Below, piece after piece: positions 2,459 through 23,760 of a stretch of DNA of 64,000 nucleotides. Below the pieces are notes generated by a model that saw nothing but the letters and a program-made list of their open reading frames with translations, was not told the origin of the DNA and did no database searches. Within the stretch, counting starts at the first letter, position 1; each line of letters starts with the position of its first letter. A program made the translations under genes and the position numbers. Source of the DNA: Escherichia coli (GTDB lineage Bacteria > Pseudomonadota > Gammaproteobacteria > Enterobacterales > Enterobacteriaceae); assembly GCF_003018115.1 (NCBI RefSeq), contig NZ_CP027457.1. One strand, written 5' to 3'.

Positions 2459-3219
2459 GAGTTCCCCGCGCCAGCGGGGATAAACCGAAAATTGGGACGC
2501 TAACTCATGGGTCTGGGTAGAGTTCCCCGCGCCAGCGGGGATAAACCGGGAAAAACGCCTGTGGTTGGGGCTGAACCAGGGAGTTCCCCGCGCCAGCGGG
2601 GATAAACCGTCGGCGCGCTCTCTGTAGAGCGGTTGTGTGATGAGTTCCCCGCGCCAGCGGGGATAAACCGTCGTCGGGTCCGACAGGGGTCGGTTGTTCG
2701 CCGAGTTCCCCGCGCCAGCGGGGATAAACCGGCTTAATAAACGAGGAGAATACCGATGTTTTTAAGTTCCCCGCGCCAGCGGGGATAAACCGTTCTTTTA
2801 ATGGCGTCAGGCCCATTACAGAGCGAGTTCCCCGCGCCAGCGGGGATAAACCGTTTTGACGATTATTCTAAAAGTGAAAATAGCAGAGTTCCCCGCGCCA
2901 GCGGGGATAAACCGCACGCTGGAGTGACCGGGTGGCAGAGCATGACGAGTTCCCCGCGCCAGCGGGGATAAACCGCCATTTCATCATGAACGGCGGAAAT
3001 ATCGTGGGAGTTCCCCGCGCCAGCGGGGATAAACCGGTCAGTTCCCGGTTGATATATATGATGAGCATGAGTTCCCCGCGCCAGCGGGGATAAACCGCGC
3101 AATGGCGCGGCGATTGCTCTCGAGATCAAGTGTTCCCCGCGCCAGCGGGGATAAACCGGGTACAAAAGAGGCCCCATTCTGGCAGGGCTCGAGTTCCCCG
3201 CGCCAGTGGGGATAAACCA
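2459..3219 (+). CRISPR. Type I-E CRISPR array, 13 repeats and 12 spacers (queE-ygcE side)
   Basis: 29-bp repeat GAGTTCCCCGCGCCAGCGGGGATAAACCG at 2459, 2520, 2581, 2642, 2703, 2764, 2825, 2886, 2947, 3008, 3069, 3130, 3191 with exact 61-bp period and 32-bp unique spacers. Repeat 6 starts AAG, repeat 12 starts GTG, terminal repeat 13 is degenerate (..CCAGTGGGGATAAACCA). Confidence 0.97.
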
Positions 3220-3308
3220 CCATATAACCCGTTATCTCTTTCTCAAGTTTTTATATTAGCTGTACTTGTAATAAGCAACATATCCACGTAACACCTCATG
3301 TTCATAAT

Positions 3309-3332
3309 AGTTCCCCATGCCAGATAAGTTCA
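3309..3332 (+). repeat. Decayed CRISPR repeat remnant
   Basis: agttccccatgccagataag resembles the repeat with an internal deletion, about two repeat-spacer units beyond the terminal repeat. Confidence 0.3.
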
Positions 3333-3687
3333 CAATTATCGATACAAAAAATTAAAGTTAATCAAAGTGTTATTTGTATAATTCTTAAGCCGTTAAGAAA
3401 TTTTAATCTATTATTTTTTTAATATTAATTAATGCCTGTTAATTTTTTCTTTAGTATAACAGTGTGTTTTTTAAGCTTGTTATTCATTGATTAAGTAATA
3501 AATCTGGAAATTTGTCTTTGTTTTGAGGCTAATGAGTGGTTTTACATAACCGCCTCTATACGCTGTTGATGAATAGTTCTTATGAATAAAGATATCCAGT
3601 TCATACTTTAAGTGAAAATTGATAAAGTGCGATTCGTATTGTCTTTTATTCTAAAGACATCGAGTGTAGTTAATATTCCTTGTAAAA

Positions 3688-3810
3688 ACAGGGATAAACC
3701 GAACTAGTTGAAGTTTTTATTATGTTCCCTGCATCAGCGGGGATAAACCGGACTTGTTATCATTTTTTAAGTTGTCGAACTTATGTTCCCCGCGTCAGCG
3801 GGGATAACCA
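3688..3810 (+). CRISPR. Degenerate satellite CRISPR array (3 repeat copies, 2 spacers), preceded by an AT-rich leader-like stretch
   Basis: Partial repeat ..acagggataaaccg (3688-3701), 20-bp spacer, repeat ATGTTCCCTGCATCAGCGGGGATAAACCG (3722-3750), 32-bp spacer, repeat ATGTTCCCCGCGTCAGCGGGGATAACC (3783-3810). Confidence 0.8.
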
Positions 3811-3856
3811 TTCAGGTATGTTCAGGCCGGGCAGTTTCCCGCCCGGTCTTCCTCAC

Positions 3857-5335
3857 TTACGCATTCGACCAGCTCTGGATCGAATCCGCATTCCCCAATT
3901 CCCCATGCATCACTTCATACGATTTTTTCAGGATCACATCAGTATGTTTGGTTAGGGCTTTGAAAATACCTTTATTCATCGCGTCGTAGCGTTTGGCATT
4001 GCTCTCAACAGGCATAAAGATATCTTTCACGCGAACCATTTTGTCGACAGCCGTTGCGTAATCCGGGTATAGCCCCAGACCTACCGCCGTATTGATCGCT
4101 GCCCCCAGACTTGCACAACCGTTAATGGCGTTACGGCGTGCAGGAAGGTTGAACACGTCGGCAAAAATTTGCATAAATAGATCGCTGTTCGAACCGCCGC
4201 CAGTAATGATCACATGCTTTGCAAAGTGATTCATTTCATTACACATATTGTCGTAATTGTTCTTCAGCGTCAGCGCCACGCTTTCCAGTATCGAACGATA
4301 TATCCATGCGTAATCCATGCTGGAATCAAAGCCGATCATAATCCCACGTTTGTAGGGTTCCCACGGGTTGGTCAGCCAGTCCAGCACCGTCATCAGACCA
4401 TTACAGCCAGGCGGCACACAAGAAGCTTTTTTGTTGAGCAAATCTTCCGGTGAAAGATCCTGTGCTTTGGCATCCTGAATTAACGACTCGCCTAACATGT
4501 CGCGTAGCCAGCTCACCGTCCACATGCCTTTACGGATACCGTACCCTTCATACAGCAATGTTTCCGGAATAGAAGACATAATCGGCCAGTACGCCACCGG
4601 ATCTTTCGGCAGTGCTTTACCGTTCATCATCAGCGCGATGTAGGTGCCAAGAGAAATCACCGCCGTTTCATCATCCAGCAATCCGGCTCCCAGAGCTTCT
4701 ACCGGTTTATCACTGGTGGTACAAACAACCGGCAGCCCTGCCGGGAAATGTGTCGCCAGCGCGGCTTGAGGTGTGATCTGTCCAAGAACAGTGCCTGGCA
4801 TTTGCACATCAAACAGCATATGACGGGGGATATTAAACTTCTCCATGACTGCGGCATCTTCACTCCATGCCCAGCTCTTATAATCCACCGGCCACTGACC
4901 AAAATAGTTGGCGATATTGTCTTTAAACTCGCCGGTTAAGCGATGCGTCAGATAACCCGAAAAAGAGGTGACATATGCCACGTCAGGATTAGTGTGTTCG
5001 TAGGGACGCGTTACGCGTGCATCCTGCCAGCTAATCAATGGCGCAGCTGGCGTGCCATCGGCTTTCAATAACGCACGGCAGCAACGGATGGATCCCAGAC
5101 CAATACCGACAATATCTTCTTTATTCCCGGCAAACTGACTCATCAAATCGTGACCGGCAAAACATAATGATGCCCATAAATCGTCGTCAGGATGTTCTGC
5201 GGTATCGGCATCTGGCGTGTGCATCGGCTGCAATAAGCCTTTACCTTCGCAAACCACATTACCTTCCAGATCGTACATCACCACTTTTGTGCTCTGACTT
5301 CCGCCATCAATCCCTATGATGTATTTTTTCGACAT
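3857..5335 (-). CDS. ygcE: FGGY-family carbohydrate kinase
   Basis: 492 aa; N-terminus MSKKYIIGIDGGSQSTKVVMYD (FGGY kinase N-terminal motif); synteny. Confidence 0.88.
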   Translation of the reverse strand: MSKKYIIGIDGGSQSTKVVMYDLEGNVVCEGKGLLQPMHTPDADTAEHPDDDLWASLCFAGHDLMSQFAGNKEDIVGIGLGSIRCCRALLKADGTPAAPLISWQDARVTRPYEHTNPDVAYVTSFSGYLTHRLTGEFKDNIANYFGQWPVDYKSWAWSEDAAVMEKFNIPRHMLFDVQMPGTVLGQITPQAALATHFPAGLPVVCTTSDKPVEALGAGLLDDETAVISLGTYIALMMNGKALPKDPVAYWPIMSSIPETLLYEGYGIRKGMWTVSWLRDMLGESLIQDAKAQDLSPEDLLNKKASCVPPGCNGLMTVLDWLTNPWEPYKRGIMIGFDSSMDYAWIYRSILESVALTLKNNYDNMCNEMNHFAKHVIITGGGSNSDLFMQIFADVFNLPARRNAINGCASLGAAINTAVGLGLYPDYATAVDKMVRVKDIFMPVESNAKRYDAMNKGIFKALTKHTDVILKKSYEVMHGELGNADSIQSWSNA

Positions 5336-18916: not shown

Positions 18917-19651
18917 ATGTCCAAACTCGATCTAAACGCCCTGAACGAACTGCCGAAGGTAGATCGCATTCTGGCGCTGGCGGAAACTAACGCCCAACTG
19001 GAAAAACTGGACGCTGAAGGCCGCGTAGCCTGGGCGCTGGATAATCTGCCCGGTGAATATGTGCTTTCTTCCAGCTTCGGCATTCAGGCGGCGGTGAGCC
19101 TGCATCTGGTGAATCAGATTCGCCCGGATATTCCAGTGATCCTCACCGATACCGGTTACTTGTTCCCGGAAACCTACCGCTTTATTGACGAGTTAACGGA
19201 CAAACTCAAGCTCAACCTGAAAGTGTACCGTGCTACCGAAAGCGCAGCCTGGCAGGAAGCACGCTACGGAAAACTGTGGGAGCAGGGCGTTGAAGGCATT
19301 GAAAAGTACAATGACATCAACAAAGTCGAACCGATGAACCGGGCGCTGAAAGAACTTAACGCGCAAACGTGGTTTGCTGGCCTGCGCCGCGAACAATCCG
19401 GCAGCCGCGCCAATTTACCGGTGCTGGCAATTCAGCGTGGCGTATTTAAAATGCTGCCGATTATCGACTGGGATAACCGAACGATATATCAGTATCTGCA
19501 AAAGCATGGCCTGAAATATCACCCATTATGGGACGAAGGATATTTATCGGTGGGCGATACCCATACAACCCGTAAATGGGAACCCGGCATGGCGGAAGAA
19601 GAAACGCGTTTCTTTGGCTTAAAAAGGGAATGTGGGTTACACGAAGGGTAA
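18917..19651 (+). CDS. cysH: Phosphoadenosine phosphosulfate (PAPS) reductase
   Basis: 244 aa from ATG 18917 (SD gagg; [12 protein letters not shown]...); ORF track start 18764 runs through the REP and is rejected. Confidence 0.93.
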
Positions 19652-19817: not shown

Positions 19818-19922
19818 ATGGACAAAAGCCCCAGGCGATATTTCTATCAACCTGAGGCTTACGTTCGAACCCAAACAATTCGAATGTTAGTCTCTTCTTT
19901 GCAGGGAGGCAAGACATGCTGA
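19818..19922 (+). CDS. mok-like upstream ORF (34 aa), translationally coupled to hok
   Basis: ATG 19818 with SD gagg 7 nt upstream; stop TGA overlaps the hok start (ATGCTGA). Confidence 0.35.
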
Positions 19923-20068
19923 CAAAATATGCCCTTGTGGCAATCATCGTACTGTGTTGTACAGTACTGGGATTCACGCTGATGGTAGGTGACTCGTTGT
20001 GTGAGTTGAGTATCAGAGAACGTGGTATGGAGTTTAAGGCAGTTCTCGCTTACGAATCGAAGAAGTAG
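19916..20068 (+). CDS. Hok/Gef-family type I toxin (50 aa membrane peptide)
   Basis: [50 protein letters not shown]; hydrophobic N-terminal helix plus the SLCE(I/L).(I/Y)R...EV.A..AYES.K signature of Hok proteins; SD ggagg 6 nt upstream; below the 60-aa cutoff of the ORF track. Confidence 0.8.
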
Positions 20069-20261
20069 CCACCACGCGGGGGTAAAACCCCGCGTACTGA
20101 ATTGTGATGGTTTGGTCTCCTGCACCCTTTTTTAAAATTTATATTTTTTATGTGAATATATAGTCTCTATTTATTATTATGAATTTCAAATGAAAATCAT
20201 TAATTTATTCATAATGTAAATGTTTTATTGGCTGATATATATCACAGATAATTTTTAAAAT

Positions 20262-22358
20262 ATGCGTAAATATCCTTTAAGTTTACTGAAGGATAAAAAT
20301 ATTGTGACTTTTTTTGATTTCTGGGGAAAAACCCGACGCGGCGAGAAAGACGGGGGCGACGACTATCACCTTCTTTGCTGGCATTCGCTGGATGTAGCCG
20401 CGATGGGCTATTTAATGGTTAAAAGAAATTGCTTCGGGCTGGCTGATTATTTTCGTCAATTAGGGATTTCTGACAAGGAACAGGCGGCTCAATTTTTCGC
20501 CTGGTTGCTGTGCTGGCACGATATTGGAAAATTTGCCCGCTCTTTTCAACAACTTTACCTGCCCCCTGAACTCAAGATTCAGGAAAGTGCCAGAAAAAAT
20601 TACGAAAAAATCTCTCATTCAACGCTGGGCTACTGGTTGTGGAATCATTATTTAAGTGAATGTCAGGAGTTACTTCCTTCATCTTCGCTCTCTCCGCGCA
20701 AACTTAGGCGAGTGATAGAAATGTGGATGCCCGTGACGACAGGGCATCATGGTCGGCCCCCTGATCGTATGGATGAATTGGATAATTTTCTGCCTGAAGA
20801 CAAAGCTGCAGCACGAGATTTTCTCCTTGAAATCAAACCACTGTTTCCGCTCATAGAGATCCCCGCATTCTGGGATGATGATGAGGGCATTGAACTTATA
20901 AAACACCTTTCCTGGTATATCTCTGCAACCGTCGTGCTCGCAGACTGGACGGGTTCGTCAACGCGATTTTTTCCACGCGTCGCACACCCAATGGATATTA
21001 AAGGTTACTGGCAGAAAACTTTAATTCAGGCTCAAAACGCCTTAACCGTCTTTCCTCTAAAAGCAAAAGTCGCGCCTTTCAACGGAATTAATACGCTGTT
21101 TCCTTTTATTGAGAATCCGACACCGTTACAGCAAAAGGTGCTGGATCTGGATATCAGCCAGCAAGGACCGCAGTTATTTATTCTGGAAGATGTGACTGGC
21201 GCAGGTAAAACAGAAGCGGCGCTTATCCTGGCGCACAGGTTGATAGCTGCGGGGAAAGCTCAGGGGCTGTTTTTTGGTCTGCCAACAATGGCAACGGCCA
21301 ATGCCATGTACGATCGGCTGGTCAAAACCTGGCTTGCTTTCTATTCGCCAGAATCCCGCCCCAGCCTGGTGCTGGCACATAGTGCCCGCACATTAATGGA
21401 CCGCTTTAATGAATCACTCTGGTCTGGTGATTTAGTCGGGTCAGAAGAACCGGATGAACAAACGTTCAGTCAGGGATGTGCGGCCTGGTTTGCCGACAGT
21501 AACAAGAAGGCGTTGCTGGCTGAAATTGGCGTCGGCACGCTGGATCAGGCGATAATGGCGGTGATGCCGTTCAAACATAATAATCTGCGGCTTCTGGGGC
21601 TGAGTAACAAAATCCTGCTGGCTGATGAGATCCACGCCTGTGACGCTTACATGTCGTGCATTCTTGAAGGGTTGATCGAGCGGCAGGCGCGTGGCGGAAA
21701 CAGCGTTATTTTGCTTTCTGCCACGTTATCTCAACAGCAGCGCGACAAACTCGTCGCTGCCTTTGCGCGGGGTACAGAGGGCCAGCAAGAAGCTCCGTTC
21801 CTGGAAAAGGATGATTACCCCTGGCTGACGCATGTCACGAAATCCGATGTGAACTCACACCGGGTAGCGACGCGCAAAGACGTTGAGCGTAGCGTCAGCG
21901 TGGGTTGGCTTCATAGTGAACAAGAGTGTATTGCGCGTATCGAATCGGCGGTAAGTCAGGGGAAATGCATCGCCTGGATCCGGAATTCTGTCGATGACGC
22001 TATTAAGGTTCATCGTCAGCTGCTTGCCCGCGGCGTCATTCCTGCTTCCAGCCTTTCACTTTTTCATAGCCGCTTTGCTTTTAGCGATCGCCAGCGAATT
22101 GAAACGGAAACGCTGGCACGCTTTGGTAAATATTGTAGTTTACAGAGAGCGTCGCAAGTCATTGTTTGTACACAAGTAATTGAGCAAAGCGTGGATATTG
22201 ACCTGGACGAAATGATCTCCGACCTGGCCCCTGTTGATTTGCTGATTCAGCGAGCAGGACGATTACAGCGGCATATCCGCGATATTAATGGTCAGTTAAA
22301 GCGTGACGTGTTCCCCGCGCCAGCGGGGATAAACCGGGTACACGGATATTCTGTCTAA
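20262..22358 (+). pseudogene. cas3: cas3 (type I-E HD nuclease / DExH helicase), 3'-truncated and fused to CRISPR repeat 1
   Basis: HD-domain motifs (CWHSLDVAA, HDIGKF), Walker A DVTGAGKTEAA, DEAH-type LADEIH; reading frame runs into the first repeat at 22308 (residues VFPAPAGINR encoded by repeat) and stops in spacer 1; about 680 aa of Cas3 sequence against about 890 expected. Confidence 0.85.
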
Positions 22359-22702
22359 AAGTTAACTAGTGTTCCCCGCGCCAGCGGGGATAAACCGACT
22401 GATAACGCCGGAGCCTTCTTTTTCAGCAAGTGTTCCCCGCGCCAGCGGGGATAAACCGAGGTTGACGTTGATTTTGTTCGTTATGTTGCCGTGTTCCCCG
22501 CGCCAGCGGGGATAAACCGACCTCGACAATGACACGGGCGCGAAAACAATCGTGTTCCCCGCGCCAGCGGGGATAAACCGTCGGTGGCTGGATTGAAAAA
22601 GAAGATAATCTGGTGTTCCCCGCGTCAGCGGGGATAAACCGGGCGCACTGGATGCGATGATGGATATCACTTAGAATTCCCCGCCCCTGCGGTAGAACTC
22701 CC
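22308..22702 (+). CRISPR. Type I-E CRISPR array, 6 intact repeats plus 1 degenerate terminal repeat, 6 spacers; no leader
   Basis: Repeat GTGTTCCCCGCGCCAGCGGGGATAAACCG at 22308, 22369, 22430, 22491, 22552, 22613 (61-bp period, 32-bp spacers); repeat 6 carries cgcgTcag; degenerate copy gaattccccgcccctgcggtagaactc at 22674-22702. Confidence 0.95.
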
Positions 22703-22722
22703 AGCTCCCATTTTCAAACCCA

Positions 22723-23760
22723 TCAAGACGCCTTCGCCAGCTCCTTCACCAGCGGTAGCATTATCCGCATAACATCACGGCAGCGACGTTCTATTCTTCC
22801 AGGAAGTGCCTTATCAATATGTTGTTGATTATCCAGTCTTACGTCATGCCAGCTATTTCCCGCCGGGAAGGCAGGTGTTTTTGCGCGTTGCTGATAACCA
22901 TCCTTATTCCCAAGATTCCAGTTAGTCGCTTCCACCGAAAGTACAGCAATGCCCGCTTTGTCGAATATTTCTGCGTCATTACAACACCCAGTGCCTTTCG
23001 GATAATTTTTATTCAAACCCGGATTGGTCGTTGCGGCTATTCCGTGACTGCGCGCAATTGCCAGCGCCCTGTCGCGCGTTAATTTCCTTACTGCTTCAGG
23101 GGTTTTTACACCGCTGTTGAAATACAATTTATCGCCAACAATTAAGTTATCGAGATTAATCACCAGCAGCGTATTTTTCTTTTCGGTGTCACTCATCCGC
23201 TTGAGTAAATTCTCAGCGCCTAATTTCCCTTCCTCTTCGCCGCTGGTCGCCACAAATCGAATACCATACTCGGTAGGCGTATTTTTCAGGCGTTCTGCCA
23301 ATTCCAGCATGACACCTAAACCTGCGGCGTTATCATCCATTCCTTGTAACGTCAGCCCGCCGAGATTGGCATCGGCGTCAGCATCGCTCAGCGGGGCGTA
23401 AGTATCCAGATGCGCCATAATGATGATCTGCTGCGGCGCTTTGCCTTCATGAGCGGCAATCACCGTACTTCCTGTCACGTTATGCCAGTTCTTGCGATTA
23501 TCGCGGGCGGTATAAATATACCGACTATTAAATGTCCGAATATCACTGCGATAACCCATTTGCTGAAACTGTTGGCGAATATAATCGGCAGATAACATTT
23601 CTGCAGGAGTTCCGGTCATGCGTCCCGGAAAGAAAGTAGCAATATGTCGTGCCTGAGTATTAGCAAAATCGCCAGGTTTAGGTGACGAGGCGTGTACGGG
23701 GAGAATAAAGCATACGCCGAGCGCCAGGGCAGCGGTACGGTGGCGCAATGCGGAAAACAT
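22723..23760 (-). CDS. iap: Alkaline phosphatase isozyme conversion aminopeptidase
   Basis: 345 aa with N-terminal signal peptide; synteny next to CRISPR and cysD. Confidence 0.88.
   Translation of the reverse strand: MFSALRHRTAALALGVCFILPVHASSPKPGDFANTQARHIATFFPGRMTGTPAEMLSADYIRQQFQQMGYRSDIRTFNSRYIYTARDNRKNWHNVTGSTVIAAHEGKAPQQIIIMAHLDTYAPLSDADADANLGGLTLQGMDDNAAGLGVMLELAERLKNTPTEYGIRFVATSGEEEGKLGAENLLKRMSDTEKKNTLLVINLDNLIVGDKLYFNSGVKTPEAVRKLTRDRALAIARSHGIAATTNPGLNKNYPKGTGCCNDAEIFDKAGIAVLSVEATNWNLGNKDGYQQRAKTPAFPAGNSWHDVRLDNQQHIDKALPGRIERRCRDVMRIMLPLVKELAKAS

What the first reader, a model, noticed from the sequence alone, without database searches (positions are those of the whole stretch)
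20262..22307. The surviving cas3 does not look like the K-12 Cas3 sequence I remember (possible second I-E cas variant)
K-12 Cas3 as I recall it begins MEPFKYICHYWGKSS...; this ORF begins MRKYPLSLLKDKNIVTFFDFWGKTRRGEKDGG... and differs throughout while keeping the HD and helicase motifs. The repeats are nevertheless the canonical E. coli I-E repeat. This fits the two strongly diverged I-E cas gene sets described in E. coli, but my recollection of the K-12 sequence is approximate.
Basis: inference. Interest (0 to 1): 0.35.

Follow-up and report, generated by a model that had tools for sequence, protein, structure and literature searches.

The report
Truncated non-K-12 cas3 gene remnant
This is the front three-quarters of the common (non-K-12, "cas-E1") E. 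coli cas3 gene, cut off by a known deletion that fused it to a CRISPR repeat and removed every other cas gene, so it is an ordinary, documented remnant; the exact way it is fused to the repeat recurs in other strains.

Summary
Observation confirmed, interpretation supported, already known. Window 20262-22307 encodes 682 codons of Cas3. It is 31% identical to K-12 Cas3 and 679/682 identical to the 899-aa Cas3 of E. coli strains with the other I-E gene set, published as cas-E1 / cas-EO (K-12 carries cas-E2). HD and helicase motifs I, II and VI are present.

The gene is a pseudogene remnant. The last 217 codons, cse1 to cas2 and the CRISPR leader (at least 6.6 kb) are deleted, and codon 682 runs in frame into the first base of a CRISPR repeat. 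The same junction occurs in 11 of 5,426 complete E. coli genomes, including O169:H41, and was described in O156:H8 isolates (Geue 2017). Both arrays in the window are orphans, so no immunity is expected.

Side result: eight independent E. coli deletions and two in Salmonella join different cas3 positions to exactly base 1 of a repeat. They show no microhomology and no PAM; there is one counter-example. Base 1 is where the Cas1-Cas2 integrase makes its first cut, so integrase-made deletions are a plausible, untested explanation.

The parts
18917..19651 (+). cysH, conserved left flank of the CRISPR-I locus
   Evidence: ORF; same gene order and annotation in the 100%-identical strain F9792; CysH is 99% identical between K-12 and the cas-E1 strain
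19917..20069 (+). hok (Hok/Gef family toxin) of the hok-sok module that accompanies all arrangements except cas-E2
   Evidence: Sequence read; annotated WP_000956458.1 Hok/Gef in F9792 and UMB200201_11; association stated in PMC3903273
20262..22307 (+). cas3 remnant of the cas-E1 variant: codons 1-682 of 899 (HD nuclease, RecA1, RecA2); the C-terminal 217 codons are missing
   Evidence: annotated as an incomplete Cas3 pseudogene in F9792
22307..22308 (+). deletion junction: cas3 nt 2046 (...AAGCGTGAC) joined to base 1 of a CRISPR repeat (GTGTTCCCC...); G22308 is ambiguous
   Evidence: the same junction is described in PMC5359238
22308..22358 (+). 16-codon out-of-context tail of the ORF, read from repeat plus spacer to a TAA stop
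22308..22641 (+). CRISPR2.1 remnant: 6 repeats (GTGTT type, the last with one change) and 5 spacers; no leader
22642..22702 (+). conserved terminal 'anchor' spacer (GGCGCACTGGATG...) and degenerate last repeat
   Evidence: the same tandem is in K-12 and the cas-E1 strains; described in PMC3903273
22723..23760 (-). iap, conserved right flank
2459..3219 (+). second orphan array (CRISPR2.3, between queE and ygcE): 13 repeats, mostly GAGTT type, 12 spacers
   Evidence: flanks align to the K-12 queE-ygcE region, L003

Best explanation
The ORF is the 5' 2,046 nt of the cas3 gene of the majority E. coli type I-E gene set (cas-E1 / cas-EO). It was left behind by one deletion that removed the last 651 nt of cas3, cse1-cse2-cas7-cas5-cas6e-cas1-cas2, the leader and any leader-proximal repeats. 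That is at least 6.6 kb. The break is fused to the first base of a CRISPR2.1 repeat. Shown: identity, truncation, junction, and absence of the other cas genes between cysH and iap. Inferred: the locus is inert. A 698-aa HD-plus-helicase protein without the C-terminal domain could still be made. But with no Cascade, Cas6e, Cas1-Cas2 or leader here, the two arrays in the window cannot be processed, used or extended. The allele is inherited or exchanged among strains, and later repeat-repeat recombination trimmed spacers behind the fixed junction. My preferred but untested mechanism for the deletion is this: a chromosomal 3'-OH end inside cas3 was joined to the 5' end of the repeat by the Cas1-Cas2 integrase, or at a nick or break that it made. 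That position is where the integrase makes its first strand transfer.
For: Identity: 679/682 aa to full-length cas-E1 Cas3 and 31% to K-12 Cas3. About 2,461 of 5,426 complete genomes carry this cas3 type at >=80% cover. The operon-wide divergence pattern is and the literature. Truncation: the NCBIfam Cas3 equivalog matches only model positions 4-665 of 878 and scores 402.6 against a cut-off of 569. PGAP calls the identical sequence an incomplete pseudogene next to CRISPR and iap. Junction: read directly. The junction is in 11 genomes with different first spacers that fit one ancestral spacer order, and it is published for O156:H8. Mechanism: eight different cas3 positions in E. coli (nt 1470, 1555, 1569, 1671, 1694, 2046, 2168, 2459) and two in Salmonella enterica are each fused to repeat base 1. 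Forward microhomology is 0-1 nt. Taking a chance of 2/61 per event, 8 of 9 E. coli events at that base has P about 1e-11. The integrase attacks the leader-repeat junction first (PMC8616872). The region upstream of the array is a known break and spacer-source hot spot (PMC10011333). In STEC384 the spacer after the junction is the leader-proximal spacer of an intact strain.
Against: Function: the remnant keeps an open frame with only 3 substitutions, and a weak promoter-like site lies just upstream, so expression and some residual activity are not excluded. cas genes elsewhere in the genome cannot be seen from the window. Mechanism: nothing here shows the integrase acting. One array-ending deletion (EC596) ends inside a repeat instead. 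In every genome that holds it, the spacer next to the type A junction lies four or more spacers from the leader, so an internal repeat may have been used. A second class of deletions ends at one site in cas2 with 2-5 nt microhomology and needs another explanation. K-12-type operons show no such fusions, though most of those genomes are laboratory clones.
Confidence: 0.9

Rival explanations
1. The truncated Cas3 (HD nuclease plus both RecA domains, without the C-terminal domain) is kept by selection as a stand-alone nuclease-helicase. The clustering of truncation points near inferred domain boundaries reflects selection for tolerated or useful products.
For: The frame is intact over 682 codons with 3 substitutions. 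Truncation points cluster at aa ~518-535 (by my own reading between the RecA1 and RecA2 domains; not mapped with a tool) and aa ~679-688 (just after helicase motif VI) in independent events. Some truncated forms are abundant (P0084 609, P0015 650, P0104 486 member sequences).
Against: Near-identity to intact alleles fits a recent deletion as well as selection. Other strains with related deletions carry frameshifts and internal stops in the remnant. From established knowledge of the Cas3 structures (4QQW, 6C66; relatives listed), the C-terminal domain is needed to close the ssDNA channel and to work with Cascade. No partner genes remain.
Confidence: 0.07
2. The deletion arose by homologous recombination between cas3 and a spacer previously acquired from cas3 itself. 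A self-derived spacer would leave cas3 sequence abutting a repeat.
For: The geometry fits. It predicts cas3 ending exactly at a repeat's first base, with different cas3 positions in different events.
Against: The cas-EO system takes spacers next to CWT (AWG) motifs in 37 of 45 cases (PMC3737337). The triplets 33-35 nt upstream of the eight E. coli junctions are ATA, ATG, GAG, CGT, GAA, GCG, CAA and CCA, so only one fits. None of 74 spacers from the arrays examined matches cas3 or the rest of the operon beyond chance; the best is 17 nt exact, 19/32 overall.
Confidence: 0.04
3. The junction is an ordinary illegitimate or microhomology-mediated deletion, and its coincidence with the repeat boundary is chance.
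For: Many other deletions in this operon have unrelated right ends in cas1, cas2, cas6e, cas7 and cse1. One array-ending event (EC596) is inside a repeat with possible microhomology.
Against: Ten independent events end at exactly base 1, with essentially no microhomology. Chance probability is about 1e-11 for the E. coli set alone.
Confidence: 0.05
4. Self-targeting by Cascade-Cas3 (autoimmunity) drove the loss of the cas genes, with Cas3-made damage setting the end points.
For: AAG motifs lie next to two recurrent break sites: cas3 nt 2038-2040, and cas2 just after the ...GGCTA|CTGG site. Loss of cas genes is a known escape from self-targeting (PMC8616872).
Against: With an AAG on the + strand, Cas3 should move away from the deleted side. 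No genome of 5,426 carries the cas2 candidate as a spacer. No retained spacer matches the operon. AWG/CWT motifs occur about every 16 nt by chance.
Confidence: 0.1

Closest known systems
E. coli type I-E cas-E1 (cas-EO, O157:H7-type) gene set: Almendros et al. 2014 mBio (PMC3903273); Diez-Villasenor et al. 2013 RNA Biol (PMC3737337)
   Same: The remnant is 99.6% identical in protein to full-length cas-E1 Cas3. hok-sok lies upstream, the CRISPR2.1 repeats are the GTGTT type, and the position between cysH and iap is the same.
   Different: Only codons 1-682 of cas3 survive. cse1, cse2, cas7, cas5, cas6e, cas1, cas2 and the leader are absent.
E. coli K-12 Cas3 (YgcB) of the cas-E2 / cas-EK set
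   Same: Same family, domain order and catalytic motifs (HD, Walker A, DExH, motif VI), and the same chromosomal slot.
   Different: 31% amino-acid identity and no detectable DNA similarity. The K-12 CRISPR2.1 repeats are the GAGTT type, and K-12 lacks hok-sok at this site according to PMC3903273.
cas deletion of aEPEC O156:H8 isolates (strain 13E0767), Geue et al. 2017 Front Microbiol (PMC5359238)
   Same: Identical junction (Gly683 codon of cas3 to a CRISPR2 repeat). Strain 13E0767 matches the window's cas3-plus-iap query at 99.9%.
   Different: The first spacer after the junction differs (ACTGATAACG... in 13E0767), consistent with later spacer loss. Those isolates also have a 12-kb queD-to-CRISPR2.2-3 deletion; the window has about 12 kb between the CRISPR2.3 array and cysJ, but that interval was not read here.
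[quoted passage not shown]
   Same: The fixed end of ten independent deletions is the nucleotide where the integrase joins a 3'-OH to the repeat. The other end varies, and the joints lack microhomology.
   Different: The natural substrate is a 33-bp prespacer, not a chromosomal end. No experiment or earlier report that I found links the integrase to cas-operon deletions.

Membership tests
Cas3, type I-E (NCBIfam NF007248 / TIGR01587 / TIGR01596; Pfam PF18019, PF22590) | N-terminal HD nuclease domain with the H-HD-H motifs | tested here: met
   PF18019 aa 21-237 E 6e-33; TIGR01596 91.3 bits, cut-off 43.45; WHDIGKF and TGHHG align with the K-12 motifs
Cas3, type I-E (NCBIfam NF007248 / TIGR01587 / TIGR01596; Pfam PF18019, PF22590) | SF2 helicase core (motifs I, II, VI) | tested here: met
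   TIGR01587 cas3_core 221.8 bits, cut-off 102.45; TGAGKT, DEIH and QRAGRLQR conserved against K-12
Cas3, type I-E (NCBIfam NF007248 / TIGR01587 / TIGR01596; Pfam PF18019, PF22590) | Full length including the C-terminal domain (equivalog cut-off reached) | tested here: not met
   NF007248 scores 402.6 against a cut-off of 569, covering model positions 4-665 of 878; 217 C-terminal residues of the 899-aa protein are absent
cas-E1 (cas-EO) variant of E. coli | cas3 sequence of the E1 cluster rather than the E2 cluster | tested here: met
   679/682 aa to the Cas3 of a strain with a complete E1-type operon; 31% to K-12
cas-E1 (cas-EO) variant of E. coli | hok-sok module between cysH and cas3 (absent only in E2 strains) | tested here: met
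   hok ORF at 19917-20069, annotated Hok/Gef in identical strains; rule stated in PMC3903273
cas-E1 (cas-EO) variant of E. coli | CRISPR2.1 repeats of the type linked to cas-EO (GTGTT... in the transcribed orientation) | tested here: met
   All six repeats at 22308-22641 start GTGTT; K-12 CRISPR2.1 repeats start GAGTT; the link is stated in PMC3737337
cas-E1 (cas-EO) variant of E. coli | variant-specific leader (L1) next to CRISPR2.1 | tested here: inconclusive
   The leader is deleted: cas3 abuts the repeat directly, so this feature cannot be scored
cas-E2 (K-12) variant | high identity to K-12 cas3 | tested here: not met
   31% aa identity; no megablast DNA match to K-12 cas3
Complete, functional type I-E CRISPR-Cas system | Cascade genes (cse1, cse2, cas7, cas5, cas6e), cas1, cas2 and a leader next to the array | tested here: not met
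   Only 415 nt (22308-22722) lie between the cas3 break and iap, and they are all array; the identical region of F9792 is annotated with no other cas gene. cas genes outside the 64-kb window cannot be excluded

The most novel reading that the evidence does not exclude
Natural losses of the type I-E cas operon in E. coli and Salmonella are often made by the system's own Cas1-Cas2 integrase, or at the nick it leaves. A chromosomal 3' end inside cas3 is joined to the first base of a CRISPR repeat, the integrase's first attack site. This deletes cas1-cas2 and all other cas genes in one step, a self-inflicted, transposase-like adjacent deletion. The window's cas3-repeat junction would be one such scar.
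Probability: 0.4. Interest if true: 0.65.

Novelty: already known. Interest (0 to 1): 0.25.

Why it matters
For the finding as given, little. It is a reminder that K-12 carries the minority cas set, so K-12 sequences are a poor yardstick for most E. coli, and that this strain's arrays are orphan relics useful only for typing. The recurrent base-exact fusion of cas3 to a repeat is different. If the integrase makes it, that would give a concrete molecular route for the frequent loss of CRISPR-Cas in Enterobacteriaceae. It would also show that the adaptation machinery can rearrange the host chromosome. The idea is directly testable with cas1 and IHF-site mutants.

Tried and rejected
1. Spacer/protospacer recombination. 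All 74 distinct spacers from the window and 13 related loci were BLASTed against the intact cas-E1 operon, the K-12 operon and the masked window. Only chance partial matches appeared; the best was the spacer at 22459, 17 nt exact and 19/32 overall, against the end of casB. PAM triplets upstream of the junctions do not fit AWG.
2. Self-targeting at the cas2 break site. A repeat-spacer-repeat query was uninformative because BLAST pieces were joined. A tighter query showed that no genome carries that sequence as a spacer.
3. K-12-type control. A chimeric K-12 cas3 plus iap query found one deletion genome, which is IS3-family mediated, and no repeat fusions. This is weak evidence because most of those genomes are laboratory clones.
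4. Was the type A junction repeat the leader-proximal one? No genome has the CAAAATTT... spacer directly after the leader; it sits four or more spacers in. Undecided.
5. Chi and RecBCD. Three Chi sites in the cas-E1 operon (ref 2531, 3823, 6563) are all in the orientation seen by RecBCD coming from the array. 12 of 16 surveyed left ends lie in cas3 nt 1365-2700 rather than 2701-4900 (P 0.003). This is suggestive only; detection limits of the screen differ between segments, and left ends below nt 1365 were not surveyed.
6. The common cas-less arrangement (strain ZJ3920) is a module replacement with unrelated filler, not a simple deletion.
7. The Levy 2015 paper could not be read, so a review was cited instead.

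Full report
**1. What is at the coordinates**

The + strand carries an ORF at 20262-22358 (698 aa). Pfam and NCBIfam identify a Cas3 HD nuclease domain and the Cas3 helicase core.

The reading frame leaves cas3 at 22307. From 22308 it reads a perfect CRISPR repeat (GTGTTCCCCGCGCCAGCGGGGATAAACCG) and part of a spacer before a stop. Six repeats with 61-nt spacing follow (22308-22641). Then come the conserved terminal spacer, a degenerate repeat, and iap on the opposite strand at 22723-23760. A second array of 13 repeats lies at 2459-3219, between queE and ygcE.

**2. Comparison with K-12 and with the other gene set**

I fetched the K-12 MG1655 locus.

- BLASTP of the 682 retained residues against K-12 Cas3 gives 31% identity over 686 columns. 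The HD motif, Walker A, DExH and motif VI are aligned.
- Against the 899-aa Cas3 of strain UMB200201_11, which has a complete I-E operon between cysH and iap, identity is 679/682.
- Gene by gene, the two operons are 20-35% identical for Cas3, Cse1, Cse2, Cas7, Cas5 and Cas6e, and 85-86% for Cas1 and Cas2. The flanking CysI, CysH, Iap and CysD are 99-100% identical.
- About 2,461 of 5,426 complete E. coli genomes carry this cas3 type. Roughly 1,180 carry the K-12 type, judged from the extra places.

This is the published dichotomy: cas-E1 (majority, O157:H7-like) against cas-E2 (K-12 and a minority of group A strains) (Almendros 2014, PMC3903273). Diez-Villasenor 2013 (PMC3737337) called them cas-EO and cas-EK.

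Two published correlates of E1 are present. A hok gene lies upstream at 19917-20069. The CRISPR2.1 repeats are the GTGTT type, whereas K-12 CRISPR2.1 has GAGTT. The only correction is that the repeat is not strictly the K-12 one.

**3. The gene is a remnant**

The NCBIfam Cas3 equivalog matches only model positions 4-665 of 878 and falls below its cut-off. 217 C-terminal residues are missing.

In the intact strain the sequence continues ...AAGCGTGAC|GGAAAGGACGAG.... In the window it continues ...AAGCGTGAC|GTGTTCCCCGCG. The deleted stretch corresponds to L002 14209-20817: the rest of cas3, cse1 through cas2, and the leader. That is at least 6.6 kb.

With no Cascade, Cas6e, Cas1-Cas2 or leader in the interval, both arrays in the window are orphans. 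I infer no crRNA processing, interference or adaptation from this locus.

From established knowledge of the Cas3 structures (relatives 4Q2C, 4QQW and 6C66 found), the missing C-terminal domain is needed for the closed ssDNA channel and for working with Cascade. The ORF is otherwise intact, so a truncated protein may still be made. Function cannot be excluded from sequence alone.

**4. Distribution and prior description of this deletion**

A junction-spanning query and a chimeric query (cas3 remnant plus iap flank, which ranks deletion genomes first) find the identical junction in 11 complete genomes. These include two O169:H41 strains, F9792, F8111-1SC3, OkiPb01716, 13E0767 and O8:H8 16F5M1D1.

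The first spacer after the junction differs among these genomes: CAAAATTT..., GGTACACGG... (the window), ACTGATAACG... and GCAATTTGT.... These fit one ancestral spacer order, partly seen in intact strain MB165. Repeat-repeat recombination would then have removed spacers after a single founding event.

Geue et al. 2017 described this very deletion, from the Gly683 codon of cas3 to a CRISPR2 repeat, in O156:H8 isolates including 13E0767 (PMC5359238). The object in the window is therefore already known.

**5. A recurrent, base-exact junction (beyond the finding)**

The chimeric query showed 70 genomes with a cas3 remnant within about 2 kb of iap. I read representative junctions.

Eight different cas3 positions are each fused to exactly the first base of a repeat:

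| cas3 nt | Strains |
|---|---|
| 1470 | LHM10-1, AH04, VE-T9 |
| 1555 | N17 group |
| 1569 | STEC384 |
| 1671 | A20 group |
| 1694 | RMDEC465 |
| 2046 | the window's type |
| 2168 | GF131 |
| 2459 | 2020CK-00188 |

- Forward microhomology with the repeat is 0-1 nt.
- A protein search for truncated Cas3 ORFs whose tails read into the repeat recovered two of these events. It also found two more in Salmonella enterica (P0075 and P0104). Both were confirmed at the DNA level on cysH-sopD-cas3 contigs...GAGAGACAC|GTGTTCC and ...TTTTCACGA|GTGTTCC.
- One array-ending deletion, EC596, ends inside a repeat instead.
- With a generous 2/61 chance per event, 8 of 9 E. coli events at base 1 has P about 1e-11.

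Candidate explanations:

- **Recombination with cas3-derived spacers.** This would give the same geometry, but only 1 of 8 junctions has the required AWG motif 33-35 nt upstream (motif). No spacer examined matches the operon.
- **Integrase strand transfer.** Repeat base 1 on the transcribed strand is where Cas1-Cas2 joins a 3'-OH in its first, leader-side strand transfer (PMC8616872). The region upstream of the array is a known hot spot of breaks and spacer capture (PMC10011333). In STEC384 the spacer after the junction is the leader-proximal spacer of an intact strain.

My working model is that a + strand 3' end in cas3 is joined to the repeat by the integrase, or at its nick. That end could be a nascent leading strand, since GC skew and the K-12 map both indicate replication runs from cas3 towards the array. 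It could also be a RecBCD-processed end. One replication would then fix the deletion. This is inference; nothing here shows the enzyme acting.

Points against or undecided:

- For the window's type, the junction repeat cannot be shown to have been leader-proximal.
- K-12-type operons show no such events, but those genomes are mostly laboratory clones.
- I found no paper reporting the general pattern. The library is incomplete, so this is not proof of novelty.

**6. Other deletion classes**

- Five or six independent deletions have their right end at one site in cas2 (...GGCTA|CTGGAAGTGCG, or 8 nt upstream). Their left ends are at cas3 nt 1557 and 2037 (twice), casA and casB, always with 2-5 nt of microhomology. 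One form is an in-frame Cas3-Cas2 fusion.
- Others end in cas1.
- Others produce in-frame Cas3-Cas1, Cas3-Cas6, Cas3-Cas7 or Cas3-Cse1 fusion proteins.
- Left ends cluster at cas3 nt 1555-1605 and 2037-2062.

These patterns remain unexplained. A self-targeting explanation for the cas2 site found no support.

**7. Verdict**

The object is a documented cas-E1 cas3 pseudogene left by a documented deletion, so interest is low for the finding itself. The base-exact repeat fusions seen in ten independent events are the one thing worth following up.

Noticed in passing
window 2459-3219 and 22308-22641; K-12 loci L003 13951-14344 and L004 4878-5640: The repeat variant is swapped between the two arrays and between strains. 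In the window CRISPR2.1 uses GTGTT... and CRISPR2.3 mostly GAGTT.... In K-12 CRISPR2.1 uses GAGTT... and CRISPR2.3 GTGTT....
   Followed up: partly
L007, L025 (type B); L010, L012, L013 (type C); L018; L024; L027; site = L002 20487-20499 in cas2: A second deletion hot spot. Five or six independent cas-operon deletions have their right end at the same cas2 site (...GGCTA|CTGGAAGTGCG, or 8 nt upstream), always with 2-5 nt microhomology (TA, TAC, ACTG). Type C makes an in-frame Cas3(1-679)-Cas2 fusion. No genome carries the adjacent AAG-flanked sequence as a spacer. Unexplained.
   Followed up: partly
cas3 nt 1555-1605 and 2037-2062 (window 21816-21866 and 22298-22323 equivalents); P0008, P0010, P0096, L015, L018, L019, L022, L030: Break points of independent deletions cluster within cas3, both as left ends of operon deletions and as ends of internal in-frame cas3 deletions. 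By my own reading these positions lie at the RecA1/RecA2 boundary (not mapped with a tool) and just after helicase motif VI. Mutational hot spots and selection on the truncated product are not distinguished.
   Followed up: partly
L002 14693, 15985, 18725 (ref 2531, 3823, 6563): All three Chi sites (GCTGGTGG) of the cas-E1 operon are on the + strand, the orientation read by RecBCD entering from the array side; none is on the other strand. All eight E. coli cas3-repeat fusions have left ends 70-1,060 nt to the left of the Chi at ref 2531.
   Followed up: partly
L001 3359-5563 (strain F9792), equivalent to window about 20070-20100: F9792 is otherwise 100% identical to the window across cas3 and the array, but it has IS186B and ISVsa5 copies inserted between hok and cas3. 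The window lacks them, so the window is not from that strain.
   Followed up: no
window 22459-22490 against L002 17036-17052: One retained spacer shares 17 consecutive nt with the end of casB on the opposite strand, but only 19/32 overall and with no PAM. I judged this to be chance.
   Followed up: yes
L029 (strain ZJ3920), equivalent to window 20135-22712: The widespread cas-less arrangement replaces everything from just after hok to just before iap, including all repeats, with about 50 nt of unrelated sequence. It is a module swap rather than a simple deletion.
   Followed up: partly
proteins P0001, P0003-P0006, P0011-P0014: Public E. coli assemblies contain many in-frame fusion ORFs of the Cas3 N-terminus to Cse1, Cas7, Cas6e or Cas1. 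This shows that internal deletions of the cas-E1 operon starting in cas3 are common and diverse.
   Followed up: no
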